A stretch of 64,000 nt of DNA, from IMG/VR virus record IMGVR_UViG_3300018080_005419; one strand, written 5' to 3'. This stretch comes from a virus. The notes under the pieces are model-generated. The model did no database searches. It saw only the letters and a program-made list of their open reading frames with translations, and had not been told where the DNA came from. Positions 7,781 to 39,105 of the stretch are shown here, one piece after another. The position numbers were made by a program, and so were the translations under genes. The first letter of the stretch is position 1; the number at the start of each line of letters is the position of its first letter.

Positions 7781-9112
7781 ATGACTATAACAAAACAAGA
7801 ACGAAGAAAATTTAAAAAAGAAATGGAGAGAAAAGAAGAGGAAATCAAAGCCTCTCTTGCCAGGAAAATCAAGCCTAAAAAATCCAATAAGGATGAAGAA
7901 ATTAAAGAGGTAGTCTATAATAAGTTTTGCGAACCCACTCGTAAATTTTGTTTAAATCATCCTCTATATTGCACTTACAGAAACATAAAATACGATCAAG
8001 ATAAAAAACTGTGGTATAAATATCAAAATCAAGCTCTTGAGAAACTACTTCATACCTGTTTTGATTTAGAATTAATGTATGATGAAAAATGCTGCAAATG
8101 TCTCCCAAAAATAGCACTTTATTGTCAAGACTGGATGCGAAACTTAGAAGACTGGAAACCCAAAACTCATAATAGACATCGACAAATTGCACATCTTTTG
8201 CGTTGGCTTTTTGTAAAATATGACATGCCACTTTTTATGGACACTGCATGGTACGAACAAAAGCAAAATAAATATATCTCTTGGTATATCGATATTGGAA
8301 AAGGAGGAAGTGTATATAAAACATTAAAGCCTTATAATATGACAAGAAAAATGGCTCACCTGTTTGTCCAGTCTCCTAAAGATCTTTCCATTACTGAAGC
8401 TTTGCGATGGACTCAAACTCTAGCATATGGAGGCGATCAAAAAATTGCTCATGCTATTGTCAAAAGTGAACTGCCCATATTGGATCTGAAATTCCCATTT
8501 TGGATGGAGCTAATTCATTTGTTTGCTAGAAGCCCAATGATGGATGCGGCACAAATTGGACCTGTTGTGGATTATGTCAGATTTCAAAAAGCACAAAATG
8601 ATGAATATACTTTAAAAGGGAGAACAATCAATTCTCTCATCAAGCACACAGAAGATTGGCATCAAGGATTAGTTAGAGAAAGAAGGGTCAAGGGGAAATG
8701 TTGGGAGGGCATATGTCTGCCTGATTGGAAACACATTGAAGGCAAAAGTCATCCTAATGAAGATGAAAATGCACTTAACAAAAAACAAACTGTATATAAA
8801 ATTGTACAGATTTTGAACGGAAAAGAATTAGCAGAAGAAGGTAGATCTATGTGCCATTGTGTTTATTCTTATAGCTATTCGTGCGAAAGAGGACAAAGCT
8901 CAATTTGGTCCTTAAGAAAAAATGCATGGGAAGAAGCACGGCAAGAAAGAGTAACTAGAAGACTTTTAACAATCGAAGTTAGAAATCGTGATAATACTAT
9001 ATCCCAAGTAAGAGGAAAATATAACAGAACACCTAATGGTAAAGAGATTTTTTTGTTGAAAAAATGGGCTGAGGAAGCTAGACTTAGAATTAATGCTTTT
9101 GGAGTTAGATGA
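7781..9112 (+). CDS. PcfJ-domain protein
   Basis: C-terminal LAEEGRSMCHCVYSY...SIWSLR...LTIEV...QVRGKYNR, typical of PcfJ-like proteins. Confidence 0.85.
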   Translation: MTITKQERRKFKKEMERKEEEIKASLARKIKPKKSNKDEEIKEVVYNKFCEPTRKFCLNHPLYCTYRNIKYDQDKKLWYKYQNQALEKLLHTCFDLELMYDEKCCKCLPKIALYCQDWMRNLEDWKPKTHNRHRQIAHLLRWLFVKYDMPLFMDTAWYEQKQNKYISWYIDIGKGGSVYKTLKPYNMTRKMAHLFVQSPKDLSITEALRWTQTLAYGGDQKIAHAIVKSELPILDLKFPFWMELIHLFARSPMMDAAQIGPVVDYVRFQKAQNDEYTLKGRTINSLIKHTEDWHQGLVRERRVKGKCWEGICLPDWKHIEGKSHPNEDENALNKKQTVYKIVQILNGKELAEEGRSMCHCVYSYSYSCERGQSSIWSLRKNAWEEARQERVTRRLLTIEVRNRDNTISQVRGKYNRTPNGKEIFLLKKWAEEARLRINAFGVR

Positions 9113-9375
9113 AAAAGGGAGAGAACACGATGAAGGTCTTATTTGGTTTATGTACGATTGGTCCTGAATGTGAGGTGATAATGAAAGCTGGGCATGGAAA
9201 AGGAAGTGCCGCTATAAAAAATGTAAATACTGGCCAAGAAAAGATTATTATGATTCCGTTTATGGAAATAGGTGTAGATGAAGCACAAAATCAAGAAGAA
9301 GAACTTACATTGCTTAAAAAGGAATGTTATAAGCTTATTGATGATATACTAGAAGAAGCAGCACAGAAAGAATAA
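9109..9375 (+). CDS. Hypothetical protein
   Basis: ORF overlapping the previous stop (ATGA). Confidence 0.65.
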   Translation: MKKGENTMKVLFGLCTIGPECEVIMKAGHGKGSAAIKNVNTGQEKIIMIPFMEIGVDEAQNQEEELTLLKKECYKLIDDILEEAAQKE

Positions 9376-9378
9376 AGA

Positions 9379-9693
9379 ATGCCTATTTGTGCTTTATGCG
9401 ATAGAGATGTTGATGAAACAACTGAACATCATCTTATTCCGAAAACACGACATAAGAACAAGAAGAATAAGAAATTGTTTACAAGAGAAGAAGTTAAAGA
9501 GAGAAAAATATCCGTTTGTAGACCATGCCATGATAATATTCACGCTTTATTTTCAGAAAAAGTGTTGGCAAGAGAATATAATACTCTTGAAAAATTAGAG
9601 AATCATCCTAGTATTATCAAGTTCACAAATTGGATTAAAAATAAACCAATAGATACAAATATTCCAAACAGAAGAAATAAAGGAAGAAGATAA
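9379..9693 (+). CDS. HNH endonuclease-family protein
   Basis: CALC...TEHHLIP...CRPCHDNIH. Confidence 0.85.
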   Translation: MPICALCDRDVDETTEHHLIPKTRHKNKKNKKLFTREEVKERKISVCRPCHDNIHALFSEKVLAREYNTLEKLENHPSIIKFTNWIKNKPIDTNIPNRRNKGRR

Positions 9694-9977
9694 TGTCTAC
9701 AGAAAAACTAAAAAGATTAGAAGCTCAAGCTAACCAACATTTGAAGAAAATTGAGTGGATGGAAAAGAAACATATGCCAGAAAGAGCAATTGAAAAAGAA
9801 AGAGATCTATTAGCCGATATAGATGTAGAAATTGCTCTAGAAGTACATTTAAATCCTCCTGACGACACTCCAGAAGAACAACTAAAGAAGAGCATTAAAA
9901 AGGTAGCTAATGATTTGAAAACACTGTCAAACTTCAATAAATTAGGAAGGGCTCTTAGAAACCTCTTTGATCAATAA
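9693..9977 (+). CDS. Hypothetical protein
   Basis: Coupled ORF (TAATG). Confidence 0.65.
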   Translation: MSTEKLKRLEAQANQHLKKIEWMEKKHMPERAIEKERDLLADIDVEIALEVHLNPPDDTPEEQLKKSIKKVANDLKTLSNFNKLGRALRNLFDQ

Positions 9978-9991
9978 AAAGGAGAAGAGTA

Positions 9992-10171
9992 ATGAAGAAT
10001 GTTGAAATGAATGTGGACGGAGATGAATTAACTATTAAAATCGATTTATCTCAGGATTTCGGACCTTCAAAATCTGGCAAAACCATTATCGTAGCATCAA
10101 CAGAAGGAAATATTGCTATTCCAGAAACAGAAATGAAAATTGGAATGAACATATTTAAGCCCAAGAAATAA
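9992..10171 (+). CDS. Small beta-rich protein MKNVEMNVDGDELTIKIDLSQDFGPSKSGKTIIVASTEGN... (59 aa, absent from ORF track)
   Basis: AAGGAG RBS, ATG 9992, TAA 10171; resembles a small protein type I recall from bacteria and phages. Confidence 0.75.
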   Translation: MKNVEMNVDGDELTIKIDLSQDFGPSKSGKTIIVASTEGNIAIPETEMKIGMNIFKPKK

Positions 10172-10184
10172 AGGAGATTTATAT

Positions 10185-10322
10185 ATGATTTCCACTCGAA
10201 GAAAAAAGCTCAAGAGAAAGTCAAGAAGAAATCGCAAAGACAAAGAAAAACAATTAAAGAACAAAGAAGCAAGATCGGCCAAACGAAAAGCATACAATCT
10301 AAAATATAAATCTAAGAAATAA
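10185..10322 (+). CDS. Very basic 45-aa peptide (MISTRRKKLKRKSRR...)
   Basis: AAGGAG RBS; roughly half K/R; absent from ORF track. Confidence 0.6.
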   Translation: MISTRRKKLKRKSRRNRKDKEKQLKNKEARSAKRKAYNLKYKSKK

Positions 10323-10354
10323 AAGAAGATATATTATTTTTGAATTAAATTGAA

Positions 10355-10383
10355 TAACATCCTCTTTAGATAGGAGGATGTTA
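10355..10383 (+). promoter_or_regulatory. Hairpin sequestering the RBS of the DEDDh exonuclease gene
   Basis: TAACATCCTC/GAGGATGTTA 10-bp stem; the AGGAGG at 10372-10377 lies largely within the 3' arm. Confidence 0.6.
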
Positions 10384-10388
10384 AGAAA

Positions 10389-11228
10389 ATGCCTAGTCGT
10401 ATATATAGAATAGCCAAAAGACTTATTGTTTCGGCAGCATTAACCGGCATTACAGATCCACGCCAATTATTTGAAGAACTGTCAGGAAGCGATATAGTAT
10501 TCTTTGATGTAGAAACAACAGGTTTAGATCAACACGAAAAACAAATAATCGAAATTGCAGCTATTCGTGTAGATGGTAGTACATTAAGAGAAAAAGACAA
10601 GTTACATAAAAAGATAAAGCTCACCCAAAAAACTCTAAAACAAATTCAAGAACAAAAAGAAAATCCCTCAACTCTCAAAAAAGGAGAATGGGGCGTAGAA
10701 AAAGTATTAGAATATACCAGATATAATAAGCTGAATCTACCCGAAGAAGAAGAAATAAAAGTCCTAGAGGAATTTAAGGAGTTCTGTGAAAAAAGCAATG
10801 CATATTTAGTGGCACATAATGCTAAATTTGATTTAAAAATGATAGGAACAAGAATCGGTAAAATTAAGAACCTCAAAGTCTATGATACAATGATGTTTGC
10901 CCGATTTTTCTTCATTCCTTCTTTAACTGCGCTATCAAAAGCAGGAGACGAAGAAGCCACCGATCTTCTTGAGAAAATGAAAACGTCAAAAGGAAAAGTG
11001 AGTTCTGGGCTTGTTTATTTAGGAAAAGGGTTAGGCATAGATGTTTCACAAGCCCATAGTGCTTTAGCCGATGTACAAACTACTATCAAGGTTTTTAAGG
11101 GAATTGTCGATCATTTTGAAAATAAGGCAGAGAGTTTAGAATCAGAAGAATATGAGAAGGGGAGACAAAAAGCAATTATGAAAGAAAGGTTCTACAAACA
11201 ATTAGATAAGAAGAAAAAGAAGCGTTAG
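10389..11228 (+). CDS. DEDDh 3'-5' exonuclease (DnaQ-like) with RIA-type leader
   Basis: FFDVETTG, AHNAKFD, HSALAD motifs; N-terminus RIYRIAKRLIVSAA. Confidence 0.9.
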   Translation: MPSRIYRIAKRLIVSAALTGITDPRQLFEELSGSDIVFFDVETTGLDQHEKQIIEIAAIRVDGSTLREKDKLHKKIKLTQKTLKQIQEQKENPSTLKKGEWGVEKVLEYTRYNKLNLPEEEEIKVLEEFKEFCEKSNAYLVAHNAKFDLKMIGTRIGKIKNLKVYDTMMFARFFFIPSLTALSKAGDEEATDLLEKMKTSKGKVSSGLVYLGKGLGIDVSQAHSALADVQTTIKVFKGIVDHFENKAESLESEEYEKGRQKAIMKERFYKQLDKKKKKR

Positions 11229-11638
11229 TATTTTGACTCGTACACTTTTTCAACAATCATTACTGGAATTTTATCTGCCCCGAGAGCTTTTGCTGCTGTT
11301 GCTCTATGATGTCCTTCTTGTCCTTTTCTGGCATAATCCAAATAAAGCATTGGAAATCTGTCGCCATTTTGCATATCTTCTATGTATTTTTGAACTAATT
11401 TTTGATCAAGTCTGTGCTCCATGCTTTGAGGATTAGATCCAAAAAGATCTTGAACCTTTTGTATATAATCATCGGGGCTCATCCATTCAATTTTAAATTT
11501 TCTATTCTTTTTGTCTTTGAAATATTCTGGCAGTTTCATCATATCGTCATAGTCAGTTTGATTGGTCGTATCTGTTTTCCAATTGATTTTTGTTGTACTA
11601 CTAATTAAAAGATTAGCAATTCTAAGCGTTCTTCTCAT
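11225..11638 (-). CDS. ParB/sulfiredoxin-like solo domain with RIA-type leader
   Basis: KYIEDMQNGDRFPMLYL...QEGHHRATAAKALG..IPVMIV. Confidence 0.7.
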   Translation of the reverse strand: MRRTLRIANLLISSTTKINWKTDTTNQTDYDDMMKLPEYFKDKKNRKFKIEWMSPDDYIQKVQDLFGSNPQSMEHRLDQKLVQKYIEDMQNGDRFPMLYLDYARKGQEGHHRATAAKALGADKIPVMIVEKVYESKY

Positions 11639-11641
11639 ATT

Positions 11642-13267
11642 TTATTCCACAGGCACAGATTCAATCCCACCTTCCTTAACCATCTCATAGAACTTCCTTT
11701 TTCCTGCCAATCCTGAAAATAGCTTTCTATTAATATCGATAGGATGCATATAGGCCGTTCCTAATTTGTCTAAAGCATGCATAAATTCATCTTCATTTTG
11801 AGCTTCTTCTACAAGTTCAGCAAGCTTTTTCAGAGATGCTTCTAGTTTGCTTGTTTTAGGAGCTTTTGGATTTGATGGTTCTAAAAAACTTTGAGAACTA
11901 GGAGCACTAACATCTCTTTCCATGATTTTTTGCATAGCTTTAGAGACATCGATTGTAGGTGTACTTATTTTAATACGTTTTCCTGTTAAATCAGCTAAAT
12001 ATTGAATTGCTTTATCTACACTGGAAAATAGAACTTGTTGACCGTAATGCTCTTTTAGCTCTTTGAAATATTTAGGATAAGATTTTTCAAGATATTTGAG
12101 TCTTTTCTTGCTTAACTTTCCTAATGTGCCCTTTTGAAGCATTGTATTATGATATATAGTTCTTTCAATGTCGTCGCCTAAAAGAAATTGAATATCCTTC
12201 CAGGGAGTGTTGTTTGCTACTCTTTCAACATTAATATAAATGCTCCAAGATCCATCATAATCTTGTTCCCATTCCCAATATAAGCTGTTATCTTCAGCTA
12301 CTTCTTCAAAAAGCTCGAAAAGATCTTTTGCGCCTATATCTCCTATATCTAATTCTTCATCATACCCTTCTTGCATATCTTCTACTTTATCTTCAAACTT
12401 ATTCTCAAGCGCTTTAACATAATCATCCTGTGCCCAACTATCCCATGCATCTCTCTCATAATCTCTTTGTTGTTCATAAGGAGGCTCATTACTTCTATAA
12501 TTTTCATATGCATTAGATCTTTCAAATGCTCTCTCTAAATCTAACTTTTCTATTAAAGGCATTAGTTCGTCTATTTCATCGGCTTCTATAGGATCATTTG
12601 TGACATTATTAAACATTTCATCACTAGGACTAAATAGAGCATAATAGCTTCTATTTGGTTTTGTGAACAGCCATAGGGGTTTATAGCCTTCATAATTATC
12701 TTGTTCATTTACACACCATTTAGTTTGATGTGCGAATAATGGTTGTCCCTCTTCTTCCCAACTTCCATCAATTAAATAAGCGTGATATCCATTTAAAACC
12801 AAGTCGGGAGTTTTAAGTATTTGTTCTCTCTTATCGTTTGCCAATTCTTCTTCTGTGTCTTCAATAAAGCTAATGAGATCTGCACCCTTTTGGAAATCCT
12901 TTAACTTTTTAGATGTTTTGCCTTTTCCTCTTAGATTGTTTAGCTTTCTTATTGCATCTTTAATTTCTTCTTTTCTATAAACATTAGACATATATGGAGG
13001 ATTATCAAAATACCACTCTAAAAGAATATGAATAGATTTAACACTCTTCTTTAAATTGCCATCAAATTTTGGATCTATACGAGCAATTTCAACGATTTCT
13101 TGTTGTACTCTATGATCTTCCCAATTTTTAGATATACTCACGCGCTTTCTAAATCTTTCTACTAATTCAGGCATTAGGTCTTCAAGAGATTTAGCAATAA
13201 GAATCCGGCTACCTGTTAAATTAGCTAGATATTGAAAAGCCAAATTAGCATTGGAAAATTTTAGCAT
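11642..13267 (-). CDS. Large acidic protein with N-terminal and internal leader modules and a 'KWCV' domain
   Basis: MLKFSNANLAFQYLANLTGSRILIA; internal LFSSVDKAIQYLADLTGKRIKIS; TKWCV...LWLFTK...YYALF. Confidence 0.85.
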   Translation of the reverse strand: MLKFSNANLAFQYLANLTGSRILIAKSLEDLMPELVERFRKRVSISKNWEDHRVQQEIVEIARIDPKFDGNLKKSVKSIHILLEWYFDNPPYMSNVYRKEEIKDAIRKLNNLRGKGKTSKKLKDFQKGADLISFIEDTEEELANDKREQILKTPDLVLNGYHAYLIDGSWEEEGQPLFAHQTKWCVNEQDNYEGYKPLWLFTKPNRSYYALFSPSDEMFNNVTNDPIEADEIDELMPLIEKLDLERAFERSNAYENYRSNEPPYEQQRDYERDAWDSWAQDDYVKALENKFEDKVEDMQEGYDEELDIGDIGAKDLFELFEEVAEDNSLYWEWEQDYDGSWSIYINVERVANNTPWKDIQFLLGDDIERTIYHNTMLQKGTLGKLSKKRLKYLEKSYPKYFKELKEHYGQQVLFSSVDKAIQYLADLTGKRIKISTPTIDVSKAMQKIMERDVSAPSSQSFLEPSNPKAPKTSKLEASLKKLAELVEEAQNEDEFMHALDKLGTAYMHPIDINRKLFSGLAGKRKFYEMVKEGGIESVPVE

Positions 13268-13725
13268 TATTCTTCCTCGTCTGGATCTGGAGCTAAATTT
13301 TTTCCAGCTTTAATTGAATCGAAAATAATCTTACCTTCTTCAGGAGACTCACCTTTAGGATGGAAGCTAAGGGTTTTCTCTTCTCCACGTTCAAAAAATG
13401 CTCTGTCGTGAATTGGGTCTACTGTACTGTACCAAACGCCTTCATGAAATTGACTGCTTGATGGTTCTGCTGCACCTTCTTTCAACATATAATCAATCAT
13501 CTCATATAAAGAATCAAATTCCATATCTTTATGCTCAAATCCAGTTTCGGCATAATCTCCTGCTCTTGCTGATTCTTCAGTTACAATCTGATATGTGACA
13601 TCAAGTTTAAAATCTTGGAAAAGAGTCTGCTGTCCATCGTATGCAGCAATAATAACTTTCTTACCCGTCATATCAGAAAGGTGTTGAATTGCTTCTTGTT
13701 CACTGCTAAAATTGAGTTCACGCAT
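13267..13725 (-). CDS. Leader-module acidic protein
   Basis: LNFSSEQEAIQHLSDMTGKKVIIAA; AAGGAG RBS. Confidence 0.85.
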   Translation of the reverse strand: MRELNFSSEQEAIQHLSDMTGKKVIIAAYDGQQTLFQDFKLDVTYQIVTEESARAGDYAETGFEHKDMEFDSLYEMIDYMLKEGAAEPSSSQFHEGVWYSTVDPIHDRAFFERGEEKTLSFHPKGESPEEGKIIFDSIKAGKNLAPDPDEEE

Positions 13726-13863
13726 TGTTTAATCTCCTTATTTGCCTTCTACACAATATACTCCAAATATTCAAAAATATTAAAATACATATAACTACTT
13801 AGAAATAAAACAATTAAATATTTTTAAAAAGATATGAAATTTTTGGAGGGAGTTTTGTTTATA

Positions 13864-14043
13864 TTATTTAGAAAGGATCTCGATAGGATATGTTTTTAAG
13901 AGGCAAACTGTACAAATAGTTCCGTCTTCGCACATTTGGTCGAAAATTTCGTTGATCTTTTTCTTTGTTAATCTTTTGCAATCAAGAGGGATTGTTTCTT
14001 TGTGTCCGCATTGAAGTTTGAAAGTTATTGATTTCTGTGCCAT
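13864..14043 (-). CDS. Small Cys-containing protein MAQKSITFKLQCGHKE...CTVC (59 aa, absent from ORF track)
   Basis: ATG 14043, TAA 13864-13866, AGAAAGAGAG upstream; CGH...CxxC suggests zinc binding. Confidence 0.55.
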   Translation of the reverse strand: MAQKSITFKLQCGHKETIPLDCKRLTKKKINEIFDQMCEDGTICTVCLLKTYPIEILSK

Positions 14044-14046
14044 AAT
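14018..14046 (+). promoter_or_regulatory. Possible sigma70 promoter for the tRNA
   Basis: TTGAAA-17 bp-CATAAT about 30 nt upstream of the tRNA; overlaps the start of the antisense small ORF. Confidence 0.4.
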
Positions 14047-14076
14047 AGGTTAAACTCTCTTTCTAAAAAGATAAAA

Positions 14077-14148
14077 GCGCCCGTCGTCCAATGGTTAGGG
14101 CTCAGATCTCTAAAATCTGTTATAGGAGTTCGATTCTCCTCGGGCGCA
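14077..14148 (+). tRNA. Amber suppressor tRNA (anticodon CUA), Glu-like scaffold
   Basis: Complete cloverleaf: acceptor GCGCCCG/CGGGCGC, D arm GTCC-AATGGTTA-GGGC, anticodon arm CAGAT-CTCTAAA-ATCTG (CTA at 14110-14112), 4-nt variable loop, T arm AGGAG-TTCGATT-CTCCT, discriminator A; followed by CTA, not CCA. Confidence 0.92.
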
Positions 14149-14188
14149 CTAATATTATCAAAGAATCAAACTTTTTCAAATAGTTTTC

Positions 14189-14217
14189 TTGACAAACGAA
14201 GGAATATAGAGCATAAT
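14189..14217 (+). promoter_or_regulatory. Sigma70-type promoter of the Pth operon
   Basis: TTGACA-17 bp-CATAAT; predicted TSS ~14224-14225 coincides with the start of a structured RNA. Confidence 0.75.
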
Positions 14218-14224
14218 AGACAAT

Positions 14225-14323
14225 ACTTGCAACTGGCTTGAATGGTAGATACGGAAGCCATAGGATATGTGACCCCGTACTATATTCTGAAAAGAACGAA
14301 TCAAGGTCATCCCCAGTGCAAGT
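14225..14323 (+). ncRNA. Structured 5' leader RNA / candidate ncRNA
   Basis: Nested stems ACTTGCA.CTGG/CCAGTGCAAGT, CTTGA/TCAAG, GTAG.TACGG/CCGTACTAT and a TTCT-GAAA-AGAA tetraloop hairpin. Confidence 0.55.
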
Positions 14324-14342
14324 GTTCAGAAAAGGAAAAGAA

Positions 14343-14669
14343 ATGACCTAGGTAAAACACTGGAACTATATTCTCCTCCGTACTGATCTTCCAATAGATC
14401 AACAAATCGTCCAATCCGCCCATGCAGCTTATGAGGCGGCTTTATATTTGGACCAACCTCGCTCTCCTGTTAATTCCTTGGTTATTTGTGCTGTGCCTAA
14501 TGAAAACGCTCTGCTAAAAGAGTATGAGCGTTTGGCATCCTATAATATCGATTCAATTCTATTTCAAGAGCCAGATAGAAACAATGAAGCAACGGCATTT
14601 TGCACAGAGCCGATTTCTAAAAAGAAGAGGAAGTTATTTTCAAAATGGAAACTTTGGAAGGAGAAATGA
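14343..14669 (+). CDS. Peptidyl-tRNA hydrolase 2 (PTRHD1-like) protein with in-frame TAG at codon 3
   Basis: AAGGA RBS 6 nt before ATG; ATG ACC TAG GTA ...YILLRTDL...QIVQSAHAA...FQEPD...TAFCTEP; the conserved N-terminal motifs lie upstream of the ORF-track start at 14448. Confidence 0.8.
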
Positions 14670-14670
14670 A

Positions 14671-14778
14671 ATGCGTTAGGCAAAAGCTCGTGGACCTCCT
14701 TTTTGGATTTCAGAAATGGCTTTAGGGCTAGTTTGTAGCAAGTTTAATTTAAGTACTTTGTTAATCTTAAACTTGTAA
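14671..14778 (+). CDS. Putative leader/arrest peptide MR*AKARGPPFW... with TAG at codon 3
   Basis: AAGGAG RBS 7 nt before ATG 14671; ATG CGT TAG GCA AAA GCT CGT GGA CCT CCT; open to TAA at 14778. Confidence 0.5.
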
Positions 14779-14842
14779 TAATTCTTAAAAACAGTTTTGT
14801 CAGAAAAAGATATACAAATTTCTGTCAAAAAGGAGAATCAAA

Positions 14843-15139
14843 ATGACTGCTATTGAGACGAAAAATGAAGTTCGCAAAGAGATTTTAGAAACAAAGGAAA
14901 AGATCAAGGCATTAGCTGCAATTCAAAAAGAAGAAAAACAACTTTTAAGAATGCCACATAATAAAATTCCAACAATAGATATTAAACTTCGTAGTGGAAA
15001 TGTTTATCAATGTGGCGGAATTGATCGTGCAGGTCGTTTAATGAGTATAACCAGAGAAAGAGCATATAAGATTACCAAACTCCATATTAAATATAATCGT
15101 ATGCGAGGAAAGCCAACAGATATGCATGAGTACAAATAA
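14843..15139 (+). CDS. Hypothetical protein (KEKIKALA...YNRMRGK type)
   Basis: AAGGAG RBS; basic helical protein downstream of the RGPP ORF. Confidence 0.75.
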   Translation: MTAIETKNEVRKEILETKEKIKALAAIQKEEKQLLRMPHNKIPTIDIKLRSGNVYQCGGIDRAGRLMSITRERAYKITKLHIKYNRMRGKPTDMHEYK

Positions 15140-15150
15140 GGAGAAAAATA

Positions 15151-15549
15151 ATGGACATCGAACAAGAAGATATTGAGAAGTTTTTTGAAATTTATGAAGA
15201 CGTAAAACAAAAGATTGATGATATTGGGAACCTTATTAAATTTGGGAAAAAGAATGACTGGAGTTTAGAGGATTTCGAAGAGCACGGAGGAAATGTTAAA
15301 GCCTTCTTTGAGTATTGGCCCTCTTGTGGTTGTTGCGGCCCTGAACGTTGCTCTGTAGAAATTCCTATGCATTTGCTTTGGAATGAAAATGGCGAAGAAA
15401 AAGCACTTGAGTTAGGGAAAAGAAACCGCTTTATTGCCAAACAAGAAAAAATCAAGAAAGAGCGAAAAGAGAAATTAGAAAACAAAAAGAGAAACAAAGA
15501 AAAAGAACTGGCTGAATACAAAAGATTAAAAGAAAAGTTTGAAAATTGA
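15151..15549 (+). CDS. Hypothetical protein
   Basis: AAGGAG RBS; CGCC motif; coiled-coil C-terminus. Confidence 0.75.
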   Translation: MDIEQEDIEKFFEIYEDVKQKIDDIGNLIKFGKKNDWSLEDFEEHGGNVKAFFEYWPSCGCCGPERCSVEIPMHLLWNENGEEKALELGKRNRFIAKQEKIKKERKEKLENKKRNKEKELAEYKRLKEKFEN

Positions 15550-15688
15550 TGTAAATATCTTAAACACAATGACGTTATGGGGTCAGAACTAAAAATCTGG
15601 CCCTATATTTTTTAAAAAGTTCAATCAAATCTCTCTAAATAGAATATAATATATTGTTGATTGTTTGTTTAAAAGAAAGTATATAACA

Positions 15689-15970
15689 ATGCCAGAGATA
15701 GAGTTTGAAGCAAAACCCAGTGGAGATATGGAGTGCTTTTGCTGGGATGTTACAGAAGAAGAGTACAAAAGAGTTGTCGGAAAAGATGACTATCAATTTG
15801 AAAAAGAATACAGAGAAGAAAGCCATCATGAAGAATATTTAAGAGAATCAGGATTGCCACCTTCTCCTTGGTTTCTTTATCCTGGACATATATTGAGAGC
15901 TATGGGTTTCGATCCAAGCAAAAGTGAAAGTCTAAGAGTGAAAATGATTGTAGAAAAAATTGAAGCCTAA
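15689..15970 (+). CDS. Hypothetical acidic protein
   Basis: ATG 15689 (ORF track starts at 15665). Confidence 0.7.
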   Translation: MPEIEFEAKPSGDMECFCWDVTEEEYKRVVGKDDYQFEKEYREESHHEEYLRESGLPPSPWFLYPGHILRAMGFDPSKSESLRVKMIVEKIEA

Positions 15971-15975
15971 ATAAA

Positions 15976-16416
15976 ATGCCAAGAAATATAATCCGATTTT
16001 ATAGACACACTCAGCCTTGTTTTTGCTTTTCGAACTTTTTTAAGTTTCCAATAGTTCTTAAAGATAAAATATGGCCTACTTCGGAACACTATTATCAAGC
16101 CCAAAAATTCACAAATACTGAATATGAAGAAAAGATCAGGCTTCTCAAAACACCAAAACAAGCAGCAAATATGGGCAGAGACAGATCCCTTCCTCTAAGA
16201 AAAGATTGGGAAGAAGTTAAAAATGAAATTATGTACGAAGCTTTAACGGCCAAATTTTCCCAATCAAAAGAATTAAAATCTATTCTTCTAGCAACAGGAA
16301 ATGCAATATTGATAGAAGACTCGCCTAAAGACTATTATTGGGGATGCGGAAAAGATAATACAGGAAAGAATATGCTTGGGAGATTGTTGATGAAAATTCG
16401 CAAACAAATGAGGTAA
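15976..16416 (+). CDS. NADAR (YbiA-like) family protein
   Basis: FSNFF...WPTSEHYYQAQKF...A.MGR...RKDWE.VK..IM...L.AKF...LL.TG...LIEDSP.DYYWG.G...G.N.LGR.LM.IR. Confidence 0.95.
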   Translation: MPRNIIRFYRHTQPCFCFSNFFKFPIVLKDKIWPTSEHYYQAQKFTNTEYEEKIRLLKTPKQAANMGRDRSLPLRKDWEEVKNEIMYEALTAKFSQSKELKSILLATGNAILIEDSPKDYYWGCGKDNTGKNMLGRLLMKIRKQMR

Positions 16417-16424
16417 CAAGTAAA

Positions 16425-16646
16425 ATGTTTAATATTAACAAAAACAAGAGAGATGGGATATTAATTTTCGTACTCGTTTTTGCATTTATTGTGATGGTTT
16501 TATTTTGCATTCATCACATAATAATATATCGCGAAAATGTAGCCAATCAAAAGAAAGTACAAGAATTAGAAATGGAACAAATGAGAATTAAATTACAACA
16601 ATTACAAGAGAAAAAATGTACCGAAACCCAGAGTAGAGAAGAGTAG
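16425..16646 (+). CDS. Single-pass membrane protein with coiled coil
   Basis: One hydrophobic segment followed by a Q/E-rich helix. Confidence 0.7.
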   Translation: MFNINKNKRDGILIFVLVFAFIVMVLFCIHHIIIYRENVANQKKVQELEMEQMRIKLQQLQEKKCTETQSREE

Positions 16647-16710
16647 TAGGATGAGAATGGAATGCAACGGTTTTATTTAGTTTTTAAAAGAGAAAGGCAA
16701 CAGAAGTAAA

Positions 16711-16866
16711 ATGGGTAAGACAAGAAGACATGACGAATTTTTGGAAGATGATTTTGATAACAACAGAAAAAACAAGAAAAAGAAAAATCAAACAATAAGA
16801 GAAAACAGAAAAAAAGCAAGGGAAAGAAGAGAAAGGGGTGACTATGCAACAATCTTAGAACAATGA
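16711..16866 (+). CDS. Small basic protein MGKTRRHDEF... (51 aa, absent from ORF track)
   Basis: ATG 16711, TGA 16864-16866; K/R-rich. Confidence 0.55.
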   Translation: MGKTRRHDEFLEDDFDNNRKNKKKKNQTIRENRKKARERRERGDYATILEQ

Positions 16867-17526
16867 CTCTTGTTTATCACTAATATCGGGCGCTTCAACA
16901 ACCCAAAATGTGACATCAAGATCGTTATTCCAAGCTAAATTACTACGTCTATTTCCCGAGAATCCATAATAGGTTTTCGGGAATTTTATTAAGATAGGTG
17001 CTTCTAACTCTATTTTTATTTTTTCATTTAATCTATCTCTAAGTTGTGTATATCCTTCTCTATATGTTGGATCTTGTATTTCTTCCTGGAAATCTTTAGG
17101 ATCCTTTGTAATGTTCATAGCAGGATTGACACCAAATTTACTTATTTTTTGGAGCTTACCGTTACTTAAGAAATCAATTAATTCTTTATCTGTTTTAAAA
17201 GAATAACCCATTTTAGCAAAGAAACGCCTAGTAGGATCGTTTTCAAAATACTCACCTGCCTCATCCGCAAAATCAGGCTTTATCCACTTGATTTCTTTTT
17301 GTGGAGGATTGAGTTGATTTGAGACTTCTTTTGTTGAAACTCCATATTCTTTAGCGGCTTGTGCTATTGCTACTCCATACGGTTTACCTTTTTTTTTAAC
17401 TAAAAATCTAACTCTATCTGCTGCCTTTTCTATTTCTCTTGAGGCAGCAACAATAATACGCTTACCTGTCAAATCAGATAAGTATTGGATAGCTTCTGAT
17501 GTACTAGAAAATTTAATTTGCTGCAT
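16855..17526 (-). CDS. Leader-module protein with HTH-like segment and ParB/Srx-like C-terminal domain
   Basis: Likely start MQQIKFSSTSEAIQYLSDLTGKRIIVAA at 17526; APILIK...FSGNRRS; ends QESLF. Confidence 0.8.
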   Translation of the reverse strand: MQQIKFSSTSEAIQYLSDLTGKRIIVAASREIEKAADRVRFLVKKKGKPYGVAIAQAAKEYGVSTKEVSNQLNPPQKEIKWIKPDFADEAGEYFENDPTRRFFAKMGYSFKTDKELIDFLSNGKLQKISKFGVNPAMNITKDPKDFQEEIQDPTYREGYTQLRDRLNEKIKIELEAPILIKFPKTYYGFSGNRRSNLAWNNDLDVTFWVVEAPDISDKQESLF

Positions 17527-17628
17527 TTTGTATCTTTCTAAATAAACTGTATCTAATATTAAGAAAAGATATCCAGTTTTTATGAATAGTTTTTCCATTA
17601 GTAGAGAACAGATAAAGGAGGAAAGAAA

Positions 17629-18564
17629 ATGAATATATTGCAAGCTATTATTGATTTTTTCTGGATGTTTAGGAAAAAGCCAAAAGAGAGTAAACCCGAA
17701 AATAATGAAGGAGAAAATAATATGTCAGAAGAAACGAATACGGCCCCAGCTATTGTTCCGAAAAGAGAAAAAAGAGCATTGTTAGTTGGTATTAATAAAT
17801 ATAGAATTCCTGCTGCTAATTTAAATGGCTGTGTTAATGATGTAGAAGATATTTATCATCTTCTCACAACTACCTATGATTTTAAGCCAGATAATATAAG
17901 AGTAATTGTTGATGAAAGAGCCACTAAAGCAGAAATTGAAAAAAGATATAAATGGATTCTTTCTTCAACAAAAGAAAATGATGAAGCGCTTATATATCAT
18001 AGCGGACATGGAAGTCAATGGAGGGATCGTTCTGGAGATGAGCTTTCTGATAAATTAGATGAAATTTTAATAACTCATGATCATACCTGGAGAGATCCTT
18101 TAACTGATGATGTTATCGGAGAATATTTTAAGCAGTTAGTTAAAGGTGCATATCTCACAATGATAGTTGATGCCTGTCACTCTGGAACAATCACTAGATC
18201 TTTTATTGGAAACCCTGAACCATATGCTATTCGTTATTTGCAGCCTCCATTTGATATTGCAGCAAGAAGTATTGGAAGAGATATGCCTTTAAGATTTGTT
18301 GGGGCTAAAACTGGGGATGAAGAAAATCAAAGACATATTCTTTTATCTGGTTGTAAAGAAAGCGAAACAAGCAAAGAATTAAGATTAGGAACAAAAATTA
18401 GAGGAGCGTTAACCTATAATTTAACGAAACTATTAAGAGAAAATCCGAATATGACATGGAAAGAAGTACAACAAAAAATTATACCATTAGTAAAAAGACT
18501 AGATCAAGAGCCACAATTGAGAGGTATGACGGAACTTAAACAACGTAAAGTTTTTGGAGGATAA
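17629..18564 (+). CDS. Caspase-family (C14, metacaspase-like) protease
   Basis: KRALLVGINKY, LNGCVND, YHSGHG (His), VDACHSG (Cys), GALT; AAGGAGG RBS. Confidence 0.92.
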   Translation: MNILQAIIDFFWMFRKKPKESKPENNEGENNMSEETNTAPAIVPKREKRALLVGINKYRIPAANLNGCVNDVEDIYHLLTTTYDFKPDNIRVIVDERATKAEIEKRYKWILSSTKENDEALIYHSGHGSQWRDRSGDELSDKLDEILITHDHTWRDPLTDDVIGEYFKQLVKGAYLTMIVDACHSGTITRSFIGNPEPYAIRYLQPPFDIAARSIGRDMPLRFVGAKTGDEENQRHILLSGCKESETSKELRLGTKIRGALTYNLTKLLRENPNMTWKEVQQKIIPLVKRLDQEPQLRGMTELKQRKVFGG

Positions 18565-18569
18565 TCAAA

Positions 18570-18764
18570 ATGGCAAGTCTCAGCAATAATAATCTCTACA
18601 AAAGAGAAGGTCTTTACGGTGCTCCTCTTCCTTCTGGTTTGACCAATATGCGCTATCCCGAAAATCCTCGGGTAGTTACACCAGAAACAGCCAAGAAGGG
18701 TATTAAAGATTGGAATTCTCTATATCCTGCAGAAAATAGATCATTATTACCTTCAAGTATCTAA
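18570..18764 (+). CDS. Hypothetical protein
   Basis: GGAGG RBS; Pro-rich. Confidence 0.65.
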   Translation: MASLSNNNLYKREGLYGAPLPSGLTNMRYPENPRVVTPETAKKGIKDWNSLYPAENRSLLPSSI

Positions 18765-18787
18765 AAATAAAGGTATAATAATCTTAG

Positions 18788-18865
18788 ACGACTGAAATGT
18801 AGGCGAGACAAATGCAACCGAATTAAGAGTATAGTATTGGAGCGGTTATTCTATATTTCAGTTGT
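18788..18865 (+). ncRNA. Candidate structured small RNA
   Basis: 15-bp stem ACGACTGAAATGTAG/CTATATTTCAGTTGT with G-U pairs, inner AACCG/CGGTT stem; TATAAT at 18774-18779 just upstream. Confidence 0.4.
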
Positions 18866-18946
18866 TAAAATAAAATATTAATGTAGCGGAAAACAATGTA
18901 AGGTATCGTAATTGAAGAGAGTCGAAATCTACCGTATAGGAAACGC

Positions 18947-18980
18947 TTTGGCCCTACTTAAATAACTAAGTAGGGCCAAA
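18947..18980. terminator. Strong hairpin / probable terminator
   Basis: TTTGGCCCTACTTA/TAAGTAGGGCCAAA perfect 14-bp stem. Confidence 0.65.
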
Positions 18981-18997
18981 ATGTTAAGGAGAAAGAA

Positions 18998-19633
18998 ATG
19001 AAAAAAATAATCATTATATTAACAATGTTTTTAGTTGGCTGCTTTCCTATAAAGAAAGAAAAACAAAATCAATGCTCGGCTATATTCCAAGTTTGTCATG
19101 ATCATTCAAAAGGAGTAAGTTGCGGATCTGCCTTTCTTGTTAAATATCGAAATAAAATGTTTGTTTTAACGGCTGCTCATGTTGTATATGATGGAAATAT
19201 GATATGGCTCTTAAAATATAACAATGAAGTATCACCAATCAAAATAATCAGTGTAATCAATCCAAATTTTGAAGATATAGCCATTTTGCTTGTAGATGGT
19301 ATTCCTAAGAATCATCCATATTTTGAATTGGCTTCTGCTAAAGGATTATCTATTGAAAAAGTAGAATCATATGGTTACAATAAATACTTATTTAAAAGCA
19401 AAGGGAATTTATTAGACATGCAATTTGCCACATCAGCCAAAGGACAGGCAAAAACATATTTACTAAGTGATTGTCAAATGATAGGTGGAATGTCAGGAGG
19501 TCCGTTGTTGTATGAAGGAAAGGTAATAGGAGTGAATATAGCTAAAATGGTTGATATTGAAGGATTAAGAGGCGTTCACGTAGATGTCGATAATTTTATA
19601 GACGAGTTAGATGCAATGATAGATCAATTTTAA
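18998..19633 (+). CDS. Trypsin-like serine protease, lipoprotein
   Basis: Signal peptide with LVGC lipobox; TAAHV, EDIA, GMSGGP catalytic triad motifs. Confidence 0.88.
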   Translation: MKKIIIILTMFLVGCFPIKKEKQNQCSAIFQVCHDHSKGVSCGSAFLVKYRNKMFVLTAAHVVYDGNMIWLLKYNNEVSPIKIISVINPNFEDIAILLVDGIPKNHPYFELASAKGLSIEKVESYGYNKYLFKSKGNLLDMQFATSAKGQAKTYLLSDCQMIGGMSGGPLLYEGKVIGVNIAKMVDIEGLRGVHVDVDNFIDELDAMIDQF

Positions 19634-19872
19634 ATATCTGTAGCGTTTCTATGATTTGCATGCCATCTACTTTGTTTAATGACTTGTTCTTGAGTTAATT
19701 CTTGAGTTCCTACCATTGTTACTTTCCAGGTTTTTGTCCATTCTCCTGTATCTCTATTTTTCAGTTCTAATATTTTTCCTTTAACAGCATATTTTTCAGG
19801 TAGCCATGTAGTATTAATGAGTACTGATCCATTATCTTTTCTCATTTCTAGTACGCATTGTTTGTAGTTCAT
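19630..19872 (-). CDS. Hypothetical protein
   Basis: ORF downstream of the SLOG gene. Confidence 0.65.
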   Translation of the reverse strand: MNYKQCVLEMRKDNGSVLINTTWLPEKYAVKGKILELKNRDTGEWTKTWKVTMVGTQELTQEQVIKQSRWHANHRNATDI

Positions 19873-39035: not shown

Positions 39036-39105
39036 TTCTCTATTTTCCTTTATATTTTTCCTAACAAGTGTGAATCTATTTTTACTTCAAACGGAGAATA
39101 ATAAA

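What the first reader, a model, noticed from the sequence alone, without database searches (positions are those of the whole stretch)
14077..14148. Intact amber suppressor tRNA in a code-11 phage
Seen: all four stems pair fully (one G-U), the D-loop GG and TTCGATT T-loop are present, and the anticodon loop CTCTAAA gives CUA. The G1-C72 pair, GTCCAATGGTTAGGGC D arm, 4-nt variable loop and A discriminator resemble tRNA-Glu more than tRNA-Gln (inference). It is the only tRNA I found in 64 kb, and genes such as 1129-1311, 16425-16646, 21084-21521 and 39106-39375 end in TAG, so suppression must be partial or timed. CCA is not encoded (CTA follows).
Basis: partly seen in the sequence, partly recalled or inferred. 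Interest (0 to 1): 0.8.

Follow-up and report, generated by a model that had tools for sequence, protein, structure and literature searches.

The report
Amber suppressor tRNA gating phage genes
A 280-kb uncultured phage that uses the ordinary genetic code carries a real tRNA that reads the UAG stop codon, and its likely job is to switch on two neighbouring genes that begin with a deliberate UAG, an arrangement kept in dozens of large phages, including cultured ones.

Summary
The tRNA is real: ARAGORN and Rfam (60 bits) call one canonical cloverleaf with anticodon CUA at 14077-14148.

The phage is not recoded. In 155 kb (55% of its 280-kb contig), code-11 ORFs cover 89-94%. TAG ends 38 of 198 ORFs, tail genes included. 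The phage also encodes an RF1-type release factor.

Only two intergenic ORFs need UAG read-through, and both lie just downstream of the tRNA:
- a Pth2-like hydrolase gene (ATG ACC TAG, 14343);
- a tiny leader with an RGPP arrest-like motif (ATG CGT TAG, 14671).

In 47 related viral loci:
- 35 Pth2-like genes carry TAG at codons 3-6;
- the next base is a purine in 39 of 40 TAG-bearing genes (window and cultured phages included);
- 28 of the 35 also carry a tRNA(CUA);
- all 21 tRNA(CUA) genes found within 3 kb are on the same strand as the gene.

Cultured GAP32, CBB, BF, fHe-Yen9-04, ME3 and Arash show the same pairing.

Homologues without the TAG most often have Gln at that position. The tRNA body, however, looks like Gly(UCC)/Glu, not Gln.

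This scan had already noted the pairing on this same DNA (e1-5804148, among others). I re-derived it independently. The tRNA belongs to a known kind; the conserved amber gate appears unpublished.

The parts
14018..14046 (+). Sigma-70-like promoter candidate for the tRNA: TTGAAA, 17-nt spacer with TG, CATAAT. It ends 30 nt before the tRNA 5' end.
   Evidence: Consensus scan, 10 of 12 matches. A pattern match only; expression was not tested.
14077..14148 (+). tRNA with anticodon CUA (amber suppressor). Canonical class I cloverleaf with a 4-nt variable loop, A73 discriminator and A36-A37-A38. The 3' CCA is not encoded.
   Evidence: ARAGORN; Rfam tRNA at 60.3 bits; sequence.
14189..14217 (+). Second sigma-70-like promoter candidate (TTGACA-17-CATAAT), in front of the leader and the Pth2-like gene.
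   Evidence: Consensus scan, 11 of 12 matches. No Rfam family matches the ~100-nt leader. Its fold is not significantly stable (z -1.55).
14343..14669 (+). Pth2-like (peptidyl-tRNA-hydrolase-like) gene. It starts ATG ACC TAG G, so UAG is codon 3 (14349-14351). This is the predicted main target of the tRNA.
   Evidence: Translation with TAG read through. Pfam PTH2 is weak (E 0.0043). A family profile matches solved Pth2 structures at E 3.7e-6. There are 1045 homologues. The conserved RxDL...QQxVQxxHA block lies between the TAG and the next usable start codon.
14671..14778 (+). 36-codon leader ORF, ATG CGT TAG G..., which would encode M-R-(UAG)-A-K-A-R-G-P-P-F-W... It carries an arrest-like RGPP motif. 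This is the predicted second target.
   Evidence: AAGGAG 7 nt upstream. Similar tiny ORFs (early TAG, then xPP) stand before homologous genes in L017, L022, L034, L047, L051-54.
14843..15139 (+). 98-aa protein of unknown function, directly downstream of the amber/arrest leader. Its expression is presumably controlled by that leader.
   Evidence: Homologues follow the Pth2-like gene in L017, L022 and L032. No Pfam or Atlas lead.

Best explanation
The gene encodes a working amber suppressor tRNA in a phage that otherwise treats UAG as a stop.

Proposed mechanism (inferred unless marked otherwise):
1. The tRNA is transcribed from its own sigma-70-like promoter, possibly reading on into the next operon.
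2. Host enzymes trim it and add CCA.
3. A host synthetase charges it, most likely with glutamine.
4. It does not recode the genome. It supplies limited UAG read-through, competing with RF1.
5. That read-through acts as a trans-acting key for a small, cis-linked amber-gated regulon with two parts.

(a) The Pth2-like hydrolase. Its conserved N-terminal motifs can only be made if the UAG at codon 3 is decoded.

(b) A short leader whose UAG at codon 3 must be read before the ribosome reaches an RGPP arrest-type motif. This would control the 98-aa gene behind it.

Placing the UAG at codons 3-6, followed by a purine, fits a site built to be suppressed. If it is not suppressed, only a di- or tripeptide is wasted.

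The net effect is that output of the hydrolase, and of the 98-aa protein, follows the ratio of suppressor activity to RF1 activity in the infected cell.

Shown here: the tRNA, the code-11 status, the two early-TAG ORFs, and their conservation and linkage across phages. Inferred: expression, charging, the inserted residue, arrest at RGPP, and the physiological purpose. My guess for the purpose is that the phage couples a peptidyl-tRNA hydrolase to the level of read-through, as a timer or a homeostat.
For: 1. The tRNA is real and canonical. Its loop CUCUAAA has U33 and A37-A38. By established knowledge, A36-A37-A38 is the MiaA substrate context shared by efficient amber suppressors.

2. The genome is not recoded.
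- Code-11 ORFs cover 89-94% of the 154,842 bp sampled.
- Stop codons: TAA 129, TAG 38, TGA 31.
- The tail-like module, including a 2309-aa ORF, is intact.

3. In that 155 kb, the only intergenic ORFs of the form RBS-ATG-(1-4 codons)-TAG are the two next to the tRNA.

4. Read-through is required. The next usable start would delete the invariant R/D/Q/H block. The gene caller's product is a 73-aa stump, or no gene at all.

5. Conservation across 47 viral loci holding a homologue.
- 35 have ATG, 1-4 codons, then TAG.
- The base after TAG is A or G in 39 of 40.
- The same pattern ending in TAA or TGA occurs 1 and 6 times, against 45 for TAG.

6. Linkage.
- tRNA(CUA) lies within 3 kb in 21 of 47 loci. 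No other anticodon exceeds 8.
- All 21 are on the gene's strand. It is the only tRNA present in 9 loci.
- It lies 31-59 nt before the ATG in L025, L028 and L033.
- Whole-record checks add 10 more, giving 28 of 35 TAG-bearing loci.

7. Cultured standard-code phages show the same pairing: GAP32 (annotated 'Sup-tRNA'), CBB, BF, fHe-Yen9-04, ME3 ('anticodon CTA') and Arash. Mycobacteriophage Cane17 has ATG TAG GTG with a tRNA(CUA) 250 nt downstream.

8. Residue 3 of 60 complete code-11 homologues is Gln in 14, Glu in 7 and Lys in 2.

9. Where the Pth2-like gene lacks a TAG (L047, L051-54), an early-TAG/xPP leader opens the operon that ends in it.
Against: - No expression, processing, charging or read-through data exist for this phage.
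- The tRNA lacks the bacterial tRNA-Gln hallmarks (U1-A72, G73), so Gln insertion rests on protein alignment only.
- The host is unknown, and so is whether it has a GlnRS.
- Two near-complete relatives with an early TAG (L023, L049) showed no tRNA(CUA) with my patterns. RsoM2USA has none within 8 kb.
- Some relatives carry the tRNA but no TAG in the Pth2-like gene (L050, probably L053), so the tRNA may have other or primary targets.
- XacN1 has two CUA tRNAs but no TAG in its Pth2-like domain.
- 45% of the genome, including the head genes, was not examined.
- The suppressor tRNAs of different phages are no more alike than unrelated tRNAs. Common descent of the tRNA with the gate is therefore not shown.
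- The exact tRNA sequence was not found in a second data set.
Confidence: 0.68

Rival explanations
1. The phage is a partial or incipient TAG recoder of the code-15 type. The suppressor is the first step towards recoding, or the tool for it, and recoded late genes lie in the unexamined part of the genome. The Pth2-like TAG would then be just one recoded codon among many.
For: Published model: suppressor tRNAs appear in standard-code relatives before recoding, and recoding is confined to late genes (bioRxiv 10.1101/2021.08.26.457843). The genome is low in GC (33.7%). Head and lysis genes were not found in the 55% sampled.
Against: - TAG is not depleted: 19% of stops, more than TGA.
- Tail-like genes, including 2309-aa and 1070-aa ORFs, have no in-frame TAG.
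- The phage encodes an RF1-type factor, which reads UAG/UAA. The same paper reports RF2 in TAG-recoded phages.
- The TAG sits at the same place, codons 3-6 of one gene family, in phages as far apart as mycobacteriophages and Rak2-like phages. Those cultured phages are annotated throughout in code 11.
Confidence: 0.08
2. The tRNA's main role is general UAG read-through with no dedicated targets. It might damage or reprogramme host proteins that end in UAG, buffer the phage against amber mutations, or counter a host defence. The neighbouring early-TAG genes would be secondary sensors or safeguards that deal with the consequences.
For: - A gate on one small gene does not by itself explain why a suppressor is kept.
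- A peptidyl-tRNA hydrolase is a plausible remedy for stalled or rescued ribosomes after read-through.
- The tRNA occurs without a TAG in the Pth2-like gene in L050, and probably in L053.
- The XacN1 authors found no targets behind 18 amber stops (PMC5852040).
Against: - Nothing in the sequence points to a host target.
- Extensions behind the phage's own TAG stops are no shorter than behind TAA stops (median 10.5 against 10 codons), so the phage shows no adaptation to strong read-through.
- This reading is compatible with the best explanation rather than opposed to it.
Confidence: 0.17
3. The tRNA is not used in decoding. It could be a relic, a decoy for tRNA-cleaving defence nucleases, or an RNA processing signal. 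The early TAGs would then be bypassed in some other way: near-cognate tRNA-Gln, reinitiation, or real termination that yields a minigene-like dipeptide.
For: - The 3' CCA is not encoded, unlike all 12 other tRNAs I read in this genome.
- The acceptor stem and discriminator fit no single synthetase well.
- A few TAG-bearing relatives lack a detectable tRNA(CUA).
Against: - All conserved tertiary positions and the suppressor-type loop are intact.
- The CUA anticodon co-occurs with the TAG in 28 of 35 loci, and all 21 copies within 3 kb are on the gene's strand.
- The codon after the TAG is rarely a possible start, so reinitiation is not general.
- The purine after TAG in 39 of 40 cases suggests selection for suppression.
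Confidence: 0.07

Closest known systems
CUA 'Sup-tRNA' genes of cultured standard-code jumbo phages: Cronobacter phage GAP32 (NC_019401), Acinetobacter phage ME3 (NC_041884), Xanthomonas phage XacN1 (PMC5852040)
   Same: A phage-encoded canonical tRNA with anticodon CUA, in a large phage that uses TAG as a stop. In GAP32 and ME3 a Pth2-like gene with an early TAG lies 2.9 kb and 0.43 kb from the tRNA.
   Different: - Sequence identity is only 53% to the GAP32 tRNA; there is no close relative.
- In the records, these tRNAs are annotated without a function.
- The XacN1 authors state that they could not find targets.
- The link to the early-TAG Pth2-like gene is not in the records (GAP32_397 is annotated as a truncated ORF). 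I did not find it in the papers I searched.
Suppressor tRNAs of stop-codon-recoded phages (TAG read as Gln, code 15: crAss-like, Lak and other gut phages; Borges et al., bioRxiv 10.1101/2021.08.26.457843)
   Same: A phage tRNA(CUA) overrides a host stop codon so that phage genes with in-frame TAG can be translated, probably as Gln. The idea that this times gene expression is also shared.
   Different: - There, many late genes carry in-frame TAGs, TAG is rare as a stop, and RF2 may be encoded.
- Here, TAG ends 19% of ORFs and late-type genes are TAG-free.
- Here an RF1-type factor is encoded.
- Only two tiny 5'-proximal sites next to the tRNA need read-through.
E. coli supE (glnV amber suppressor), and synthetic Glu/GlyT(CUA) suppressors that GlnRS mischarges (Normanly et al. 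1990, J Mol Biol 213:719; recalled from memory, not checked here)
   Same: The CUCUAAA anticodon loop. A Glu- or Gly(UCC)-type body carrying CUA was reported to be charged partly or mainly with Gln. That would reconcile the tRNA body with the Gln seen in homologues.
   Different: - supE is a mutated tRNA-Gln with U1-A72 and G73; this tRNA has G1-C72 and A73.
- The host and its synthetases are unknown.
- In hosts without GlnRS, such as Mycobacterium for Cane17, the charging route must differ.
Ribosome-arrest leader peptides with RAPP/RGPP/RAGP cores (ApdA, ApdP, SecM) and Pro-Pro-stop leaders; named from general knowledge
   Same: The second target is a short leader with R-G-P-P. Relatives have RSPP-stop, AKPP-stop, RAPP, VGPP and QAPP, in front of a downstream gene.
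   Different: An amber codon at codons 3-5 precedes the arrest motif, so stalling would depend on suppression. I know of no described arrest leader gated in this way. Arrest itself is untested.

Membership tests
tRNA (Rfam RF00005), canonical elongator | Cloverleaf that scores above the family threshold, with conserved U8, A14, G18 G19, U33, T54-Psi55-C56 and A58 | tested here: met
   60.3 bits against a gathering score of 29, model positions 1-71 of 71. ARAGORN agrees. The named positions were read from the sequence.
Amber suppressor tRNA | Anticodon CUA in a 7-nt loop with U33 and a purine at 37 | tested here: met
   Loop CUCUAAA.
Amber suppressor tRNA | Is aminoacylated and decodes UAG in vivo | not testable with these tools
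   Indirect support only: a TAG in an essential part of a linked gene co-occurs with the tRNA in 28 of 35 related loci.
Bacterial tRNA-Gln | U1-A72, G73, G2-C71/G3-C70, 5-nt variable loop (E. coli GlnRS identity set, from established knowledge; E. coli genes read here) | tested here: not met
   The tRNA has G1-C72, C2-G71, A73 and a 4-nt variable loop. Identity to glnV/glnW is 43%. Only G3-C70, G10 and U35 are shared.
Bacterial tRNA-Glu | G1-C72, U8-C9-G10-U11-C12 start of the D arm, 4-nt variable loop (no position 47), U11-A24, anticodon UUC | tested here: inconclusive
   Shares G1-C72, UCGUC and the 4-nt loop. Identity to E. coli gltT is 61%. But it has U11-G24, C2-G71 and A73, and the anticodon is changed. 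tRNA-Gly(UCC) fits as well or better (67%).
tRNA-Pyl (ARAGORN's label) | Small D loop without G18 G19, 3-nt variable loop, 6-bp anticodon stem, and pylS/pylBCD genes | tested here: not met
   Canonical D and T loops, a 5-bp anticodon stem and a 4-nt variable loop. No Pyl genes were seen among the proteins screened or the called genes listed, which are not a complete survey of the 155 kb.
Stop-codon-recoded (code 15) phage | Many in-frame TAGs in conserved, mainly late, genes, so that code 11 fragments them | tested here: not met
   No long ORF is split by TAG in the window. Code-11 coverage is 89-94% over 155 kb, including the tail-like genes. Head genes were not located.
Stop-codon-recoded (code 15) phage | TAG rarely or never used as a terminator; RF2 rather than RF1 if a release factor is encoded (as reported in bioRxiv 10.1101/2021.08.26.457843) | tested here: not met
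   TAG ends 38 of 198 ORFs. The encoded factor scores 256 bits as RF1 against 173 as RF2, with PPT and GGQ motifs.
PTH2 peptidyl-tRNA hydrolase (Pfam PF01981), for the main target gene | Score above the Pfam gathering threshold; catalytic activity | tested here: inconclusive
   A single sequence scores 17.7 bits against a cut-off of 23. A family profile hits solved Pth2 chains at E 3.7e-6 to 0.05. I therefore call it 'Pth2-like'. Activity is untested.

The most novel reading that the evidence does not exclude
Large standard-code phages use a dedicated suppressor tRNA as a trans-acting regulator of gene expression, not as a tool for changing the code.

In this reading, the tRNA(CUA), a phage RF1-type factor, an amber-gated Pth2-like hydrolase and an amber-gated arrest leader together form a circuit. 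The circuit measures the balance between UAG read-through and UAG termination in the infected cell. It uses that balance to time or stabilise the expression of a small regulon.

The circuit would be ancient and widespread, running from mycobacteriophage cluster C1 to Rak2-like phages and environmental huge phages. It would also identify, for phages such as GAP32 and ME3, the missing target of the orphan suppressor tRNAs reported in jumbo phages.
Probability: 0.35. Interest if true: 0.85.

Novelty: new variant of a known kind. Interest (0 to 1): 0.62.

Why it matters
Suppressor tRNAs have been annotated in cultured jumbo phages that use the standard code, such as GAP32, ME3 and XacN1. Their purpose has stayed open, and the XacN1 authors state that they could find no target genes.

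The comparison made here points to a concrete target that annotation misses. That target is a UAG placed at codons 3-6 of a Pth2-like gene, and of a small arrest-type leader. It lies upstream of the start codon that gene callers choose, which is why annotation misses it.

If this holds, a stop-codon-reading tRNA would be acting as a regulatory molecule in a virus that has not changed its genetic code.

There are practical consequences too. Dozens of phage records would carry a truncated or missing Pth2-like gene. The idea can also be tested directly in cultured phages of laboratory hosts (Cronobacter, Serratia, Yersinia, Acinetobacter, Salmonella, Mycobacterium smegmatis).

Tried and rejected
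- **Whole-genome search:** I walked the contig by exact-protein look-ups instead and used all 12. This reached 55% of it. The head genes were not found.
- **Close relatives of the region:** megablast of 8000-20000 against phages found none.
- **Relatives of the tRNA itself:**
  - blastn of the tRNA against phages and E. coli genomes found none;
  - an exact T-arm pattern in viral contigs found none;
  - two metagenome scans for the tRNA with a free anticodon found none.
  
  The anticodon therefore could not be confirmed in a second data set. A look-up of the truncated Pth2-like product found no record.
- **Identity from the D arm:** the exact D arm occurs in tRNA-Ile(UAU), Gln(UUG) and Gly(UCC) of phages and in Gly(UCC) of Coriobacteriia, so it does not settle identity.
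- **Identity from overall similarity:** similarity to 169 distinct phage tRNAs gave no clear nearest isoacceptor. The phage's own 12 array tRNAs include no Gln, Glu, Gly or Lys to compare with.
- **Programmed fusions:** three TAG-ended genes run in frame into the next gene. This is the same rate as for TAA-ended genes (3 of 22 against 12 of 91), so I rejected it.
- **Back-up stops after TAG:** no difference from TAA.
- **T-box or other known RNA in the leader:** no match, and the fold is not significant.
- **The 98-aa protein:** no lead from Pfam or the Atlas.
- **Word-based protein search for the Pth2-like gene:** found only the query itself.
- **First alignment for locus search:** too diverse to yield patterns.
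- **Degenerate anticodon-loop pattern on whole records:** as many hits as its control. I kept only the hits that ARAGORN confirmed.
Full report

ARAGORN reports one tRNA in the 64-kb window, at 14077-14149 on the + strand, with anticodon CTA. Rfam's tRNA model matches 14077-14148 over its whole length at 60.3 bits, against a threshold of 29, E 1.5e-10. Nothing else in the window reaches any Rfam threshold.

The sequence shows all four stems fully paired, with one G-U pair (U11-G24). It also shows G18 G19, T loop TTCGATT, anticodon loop CTCTAAA, a 4-nt variable loop, discriminator A, and CTA instead of CCA after it.

ARAGORN's 'Pyl' label reflects only the anticodon. The D loop, the T loop and the 5-bp anticodon stem are canonical, not Pyl-like.

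A sigma-70-like promoter candidate (TTGAAA, 17 nt with TG, CATAAT) ends 30 nt before the tRNA. A second candidate (TTGACA-17-CATAAT) lies 41 nt after it. No terminator is predicted between them.

**2. What genome is this, and is it recoded?**

The window is 33.7% GC. It encodes replication proteins: a split DnaE-type polymerase, primase, helicases, a UvsX-like recombinase and exonucleases.

An exact-protein look-up places the window at about 32019-96018 of a 280,011-bp metagenomic contig. I walked that contig with further look-ups. This gave 154,842 bp, or 55% of the contig.

| Measure | Result |
|---|---|
| Code-11 ORF coverage | 89-94% |
| ORFs of 50 aa or more, non-overlapping | 198 |
| Stops | TAA 129, TAG 38, TGA 31 |

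- No long ORF in the window is split by a TAG.
- The tail-like module translates without interruption. It holds two proteins with weak 'minor tail' matches, a 2309-aa ORF and a 1070-aa ORF. Seven of the 33 ORFs beyond the window end in TAG.
- Extensions that read-through would add behind TAG stops are no shorter than behind TAA stops (median 10.5 against 10 codons).
- In-frame run-on into the next gene is equally common for both stops.

The genome also encodes a 231-aa release factor. It matches RF1 models from position 106 onward, so it lacks domain 1. It scores 256 bits as RF1 against 173 as RF2, and has PPT and GGQ motifs.

The phage therefore uses TAG as a stop and even brings a UAG/UAA-type release factor. 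This is the opposite of what is reported for TAG-recoded phages, which carry RF2 and deplete TAG.

**3. What needs the tRNA?**

I scanned the 155 kb for a ribosome-binding site, a start codon, a few codons, a stop and then a long open frame. Only two intergenic cases stand out. Both lie directly downstream of the tRNA.

*The first* starts at 14343 with ATG ACC TAG GTA and is followed by 105 open codons.
- With the TAG read through, it gives a 108-aa protein.
- Its Pfam PTH2 match is weak.
- A profile of its family hits solved Pth2 peptidyl-tRNA hydrolases at E 3.7e-6.
- An exhaustive HMMER search finds 1045 relatives.
- The invariant R, D, Q and H residues lie between the TAG and the next possible start. 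Gene callers produce a 73-aa stump or nothing. Read-through is therefore needed for a complete protein.

*The second* starts at 14671 with ATG CGT TAG GCA, behind AAGGAG. It would encode M-R-(UAG)-A-K-A-R-G-P-P-F-W... The R-G-P-P resembles the cores of known ribosome-arrest peptides (general knowledge; arrest is untested). It ends 64 nt before a 98-aa gene of unknown function.

**4. Is this arrangement conserved?**

A degenerate-pattern search with an alignment of close homologues returned 47 loci from IMG/VR. Most come from contigs of 100-380 kb.

*The gate:*
- In 35 loci the gene begins ATG, one to four codons, then TAG. The position is codon 3 in most, then 4, 5 or 6. All have a good ribosome-binding site.
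- The base after the TAG is A or G in 39 of 40 cases and never T. In E. coli, a 3' purine is known to favour amber suppression (general knowledge).
- The same start architecture ending in TAA or TGA occurs once and six times in these loci, against 45 times for TAG.

*The tRNA:*
- ARAGORN finds a tRNA(CUA) within 3 kb in 21 of the 47 loci. No other anticodon is present in more than 8.
- All 21 are on the gene's strand. In nine loci it is the only tRNA.
- In L025, L028 and L033 it ends 31-59 nt before the ATG, so co-transcription is likely there.
- Pattern searches of whole records, confirmed by ARAGORN, add ten more records in which the tRNA lies 3-41 kb away.
- In total, 28 of the 35 TAG-bearing loci have the tRNA. 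Of the seven without it, three come from records known to be short or incomplete (L011, L036, L045) and two were not checked as whole records (L008, L034). Two come from near-complete genomes (L023, L049).

*Cultured phages*:

| Phage | Start of Pth2-like gene | tRNA(CUA) |
|---|---|---|
| GAP32 | M-A-Q-TAG | 'Sup-tRNA', 2.9 kb downstream; record annotates a truncated ORF |
| CBB, BF, fHe-Yen9-04 | early TAG | present, 3.4-3.9 kb downstream |
| ME3 | M-T-TAG | 'anticodon CTA', 0.43 kb upstream |
| Arash | M-L-TAG | present, annotated as tRNA-Phe |
| RsoM2USA | M-L-TAG | none within 8 kb |
| Cane17 (mycobacteriophage) | ATG TAG GTG | 250 nt downstream |
| XacN1, Xoo-sp13 | domain inside a longer ORF, no TAG | none in the stretch fetched; the XacN1 paper reports two CUA tRNA genes in each terminal repeat |

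*The leader is conserved too.* Homologues of the 98-aa gene in L017 and L022 are preceded by M-V-F-W-(TAG)-M-Q-C-R-S-P-P-stop and M-K-(TAG)-L-C-P-A-K-P-P-stop. In L032, where the Pth2-like gene has a TGA in place of the TAG, the leader is M-S-R-G-P-P-stop.

In L047 and L051-L054 the Pth2-like gene has no TAG. There, an early-TAG leader with RAPP, VGPP or QAPP opens a two-gene operon that ends in the Pth2-like gene. Two different designs therefore make the same hydrolase depend on UAG read-through. This is the strongest hint that the dependence itself is under selection.

**5. Which amino acid is inserted?**

The tRNA's identity to reference tRNAs:

| Reference tRNA | Identity |
|---|---|
| Gly(UCC), Atopobiaceae | 67% |
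| Glu, E. coli gltT | 61% |
| Gly(UCC), E. coli glyT | 55% |
| Lys, E. coli | 44% |
| Gln, E. coli | 43% |

- It shares G1-C72, C2-G71 and G3-C70 with Gly, UCGUC with Glu and Gly, and the 4-nt variable loop with both.
- It lacks U1-A72 and G73 of bacterial tRNA-Gln.
- Comparison with 169 distinct phage tRNAs does not resolve its origin.
- The phage's own array of 12 tRNAs has no Gln, Glu, Gly or Lys. Unlike the suppressor, all of them encode CCA.

The better clue is the protein. Among 60 complete, code-11 homologues, residue 3 is Gln in 14, Glu in 7, Asp in 6 and Lys in 2. Starts such as M-T-Q-V and M-S-Q-V mirror M-T-(TAG)-V.

From memory, not checked here: synthetic E. coli amber suppressors built on Glu and GlyT bodies were found to be charged largely by GlnRS (Normanly et al. 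1990). That would reconcile the body with the alignment.

I put Gln at about 0.5. Glu, Lys and Gly are the alternatives.

**6. How it most likely works.**

The tRNA is made early from a host-type promoter. It is then trimmed and given its CCA end by host enzymes, and charged. It competes with RF1 at UAG.

At ordinary terminal UAGs, read-through adds short tails. At the two engineered sites it has a larger effect. One site opens the Pth2-like reading frame. The other lets the ribosome reach the arrest-type motif of the leader, which presumably frees translation of the 98-aa gene.

Placing the UAG right after the start costs only a di- or tripeptide when it is not suppressed.

The phage's RF1-type factor sits in a different operon and would oppose the tRNA. 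The pair could therefore set a window of expression.

All steps after 'the tRNA gene and the TAGs exist and co-occur' are inference. I cannot say why a hydrolase should track read-through. Clearing peptidyl-tRNA that arises after read-through, or feedback on the suppressor itself, are guesses.

**7. Comparison with what is known.**

Phage suppressor tRNAs are well known in recoded phages. They are also annotated in several standard-code jumbo phages. For XacN1, the authors read through 18 amber stops and found no targets. A review of jumbo phages lists PTH2 as widespread but mentions no suppressor.

Four full-text searches found no paper that links tRNA(CUA) with an early TAG in the Pth2-like gene. 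The library does not hold most subscription journals, so this is not proof of absence.

The tRNA as such is a new member of a known kind. Its dedicated use in a standard-code phage is a new variant.

Earlier notes of this scan, on the same DNA, had already described the pairing (e1-5804148, e1-5804134, e1-5804146), the second ORF (e1-5804149) and the RF1-like factor (e1-5804199). I used them as leads and re-derived each point with my own calls.

**8. Limits.**

- No expression data exist, and the host is unknown.
- 45% of the genome was not read.
- The exact tRNA was not found in a second data set, although five contigs carry the neighbouring gene.
- The 47 loci include close relatives of one another: about ten Rak2-like records, L034 and L036, and L041, L042 and L044. 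The counts therefore overstate the number of independent lineages.

Noticed in passing
L109:874-1569 (same contig, about 75 kb beyond the window end): The phage encodes a 231-aa RF1-type release factor without domain 1. It has PPT and GGQ motifs and scores 256 bits as RF1 against 173 as RF2. It would oppose the amber suppressor.
   Followed up: partly
L111:5423-10028 and 15417-15493 (same contig): Twelve further tRNA genes: Ile, Ala x2, Tyr, Phe, Leu x4, Asp, Trp and Val. All encode the 3' CCA. The suppressor is the only tRNA read in this genome that does not.
   Followed up: partly
window 37578-39035, 39070-39375, 39379-41976: The DnaE-type polymerase is split into an 865-aa ORF and a 485-aa ORF in different frames. 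A 101-aa ORF on the opposite strand lies in the gap. This looks like a gene split by a mobile insert.
   Followed up: no
window 56755-58571; L002:8541-10355: Two adjacent window ORFs of 375 and 229 aa form a single 604-aa ORF in a near-identical JGI contig. This is a strain difference or an assembly indel.
   Followed up: no
L069:8903 (Ralstonia phage RsoM2USA): A second gene, right after the Pth2-like gene, also starts with an early TAG (M-K-S-TAG, then 188 codons). No tRNA(CUA) lies within 8 kb.
   Followed up: no
L056:4307-4381 (Salmonella phage Arash); L055:4088-4321 (GAP32): Annotation errors in public records. Arash's tRNA(CUA) is labelled tRNA-Phe. GAP32_397 is annotated as a truncated ORF that starts after the conserved block of the Pth2-like gene.
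   Followed up: partly
L032:3001 and L037:1761-1836: Variants of the theme. L032 has a TGA in place of the TAG near the start of the Pth2-like gene, and a leader M-S-R-G-P-P-stop without TAG. L037 has an ochre-type tRNA(UUA) 1.2 kb upstream of a Pth2-like gene that has no stop.
   Followed up: no
window 14225-14323: About 100 nt of leader lie between the second promoter candidate and the Pth2-like start. No Rfam family matches, and the predicted fold is not significantly more stable than shuffles (z -1.55).
   Followed up: partly
L001:4852-7998 and L059:3741-7856 (same contig): The SNF2-type helicase and the ribonucleotide reductase large subunit both carry intein domains, according to the precomputed Pfam hits.
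   Followed up: no
L105:5578-6310 (same contig): Two adjacent small KTSC-domain proteins. KTSC is the RNA-binding domain found at the end of some lysyl-tRNA synthetases. This is another translation-related oddity in this phage.
   Followed up: no
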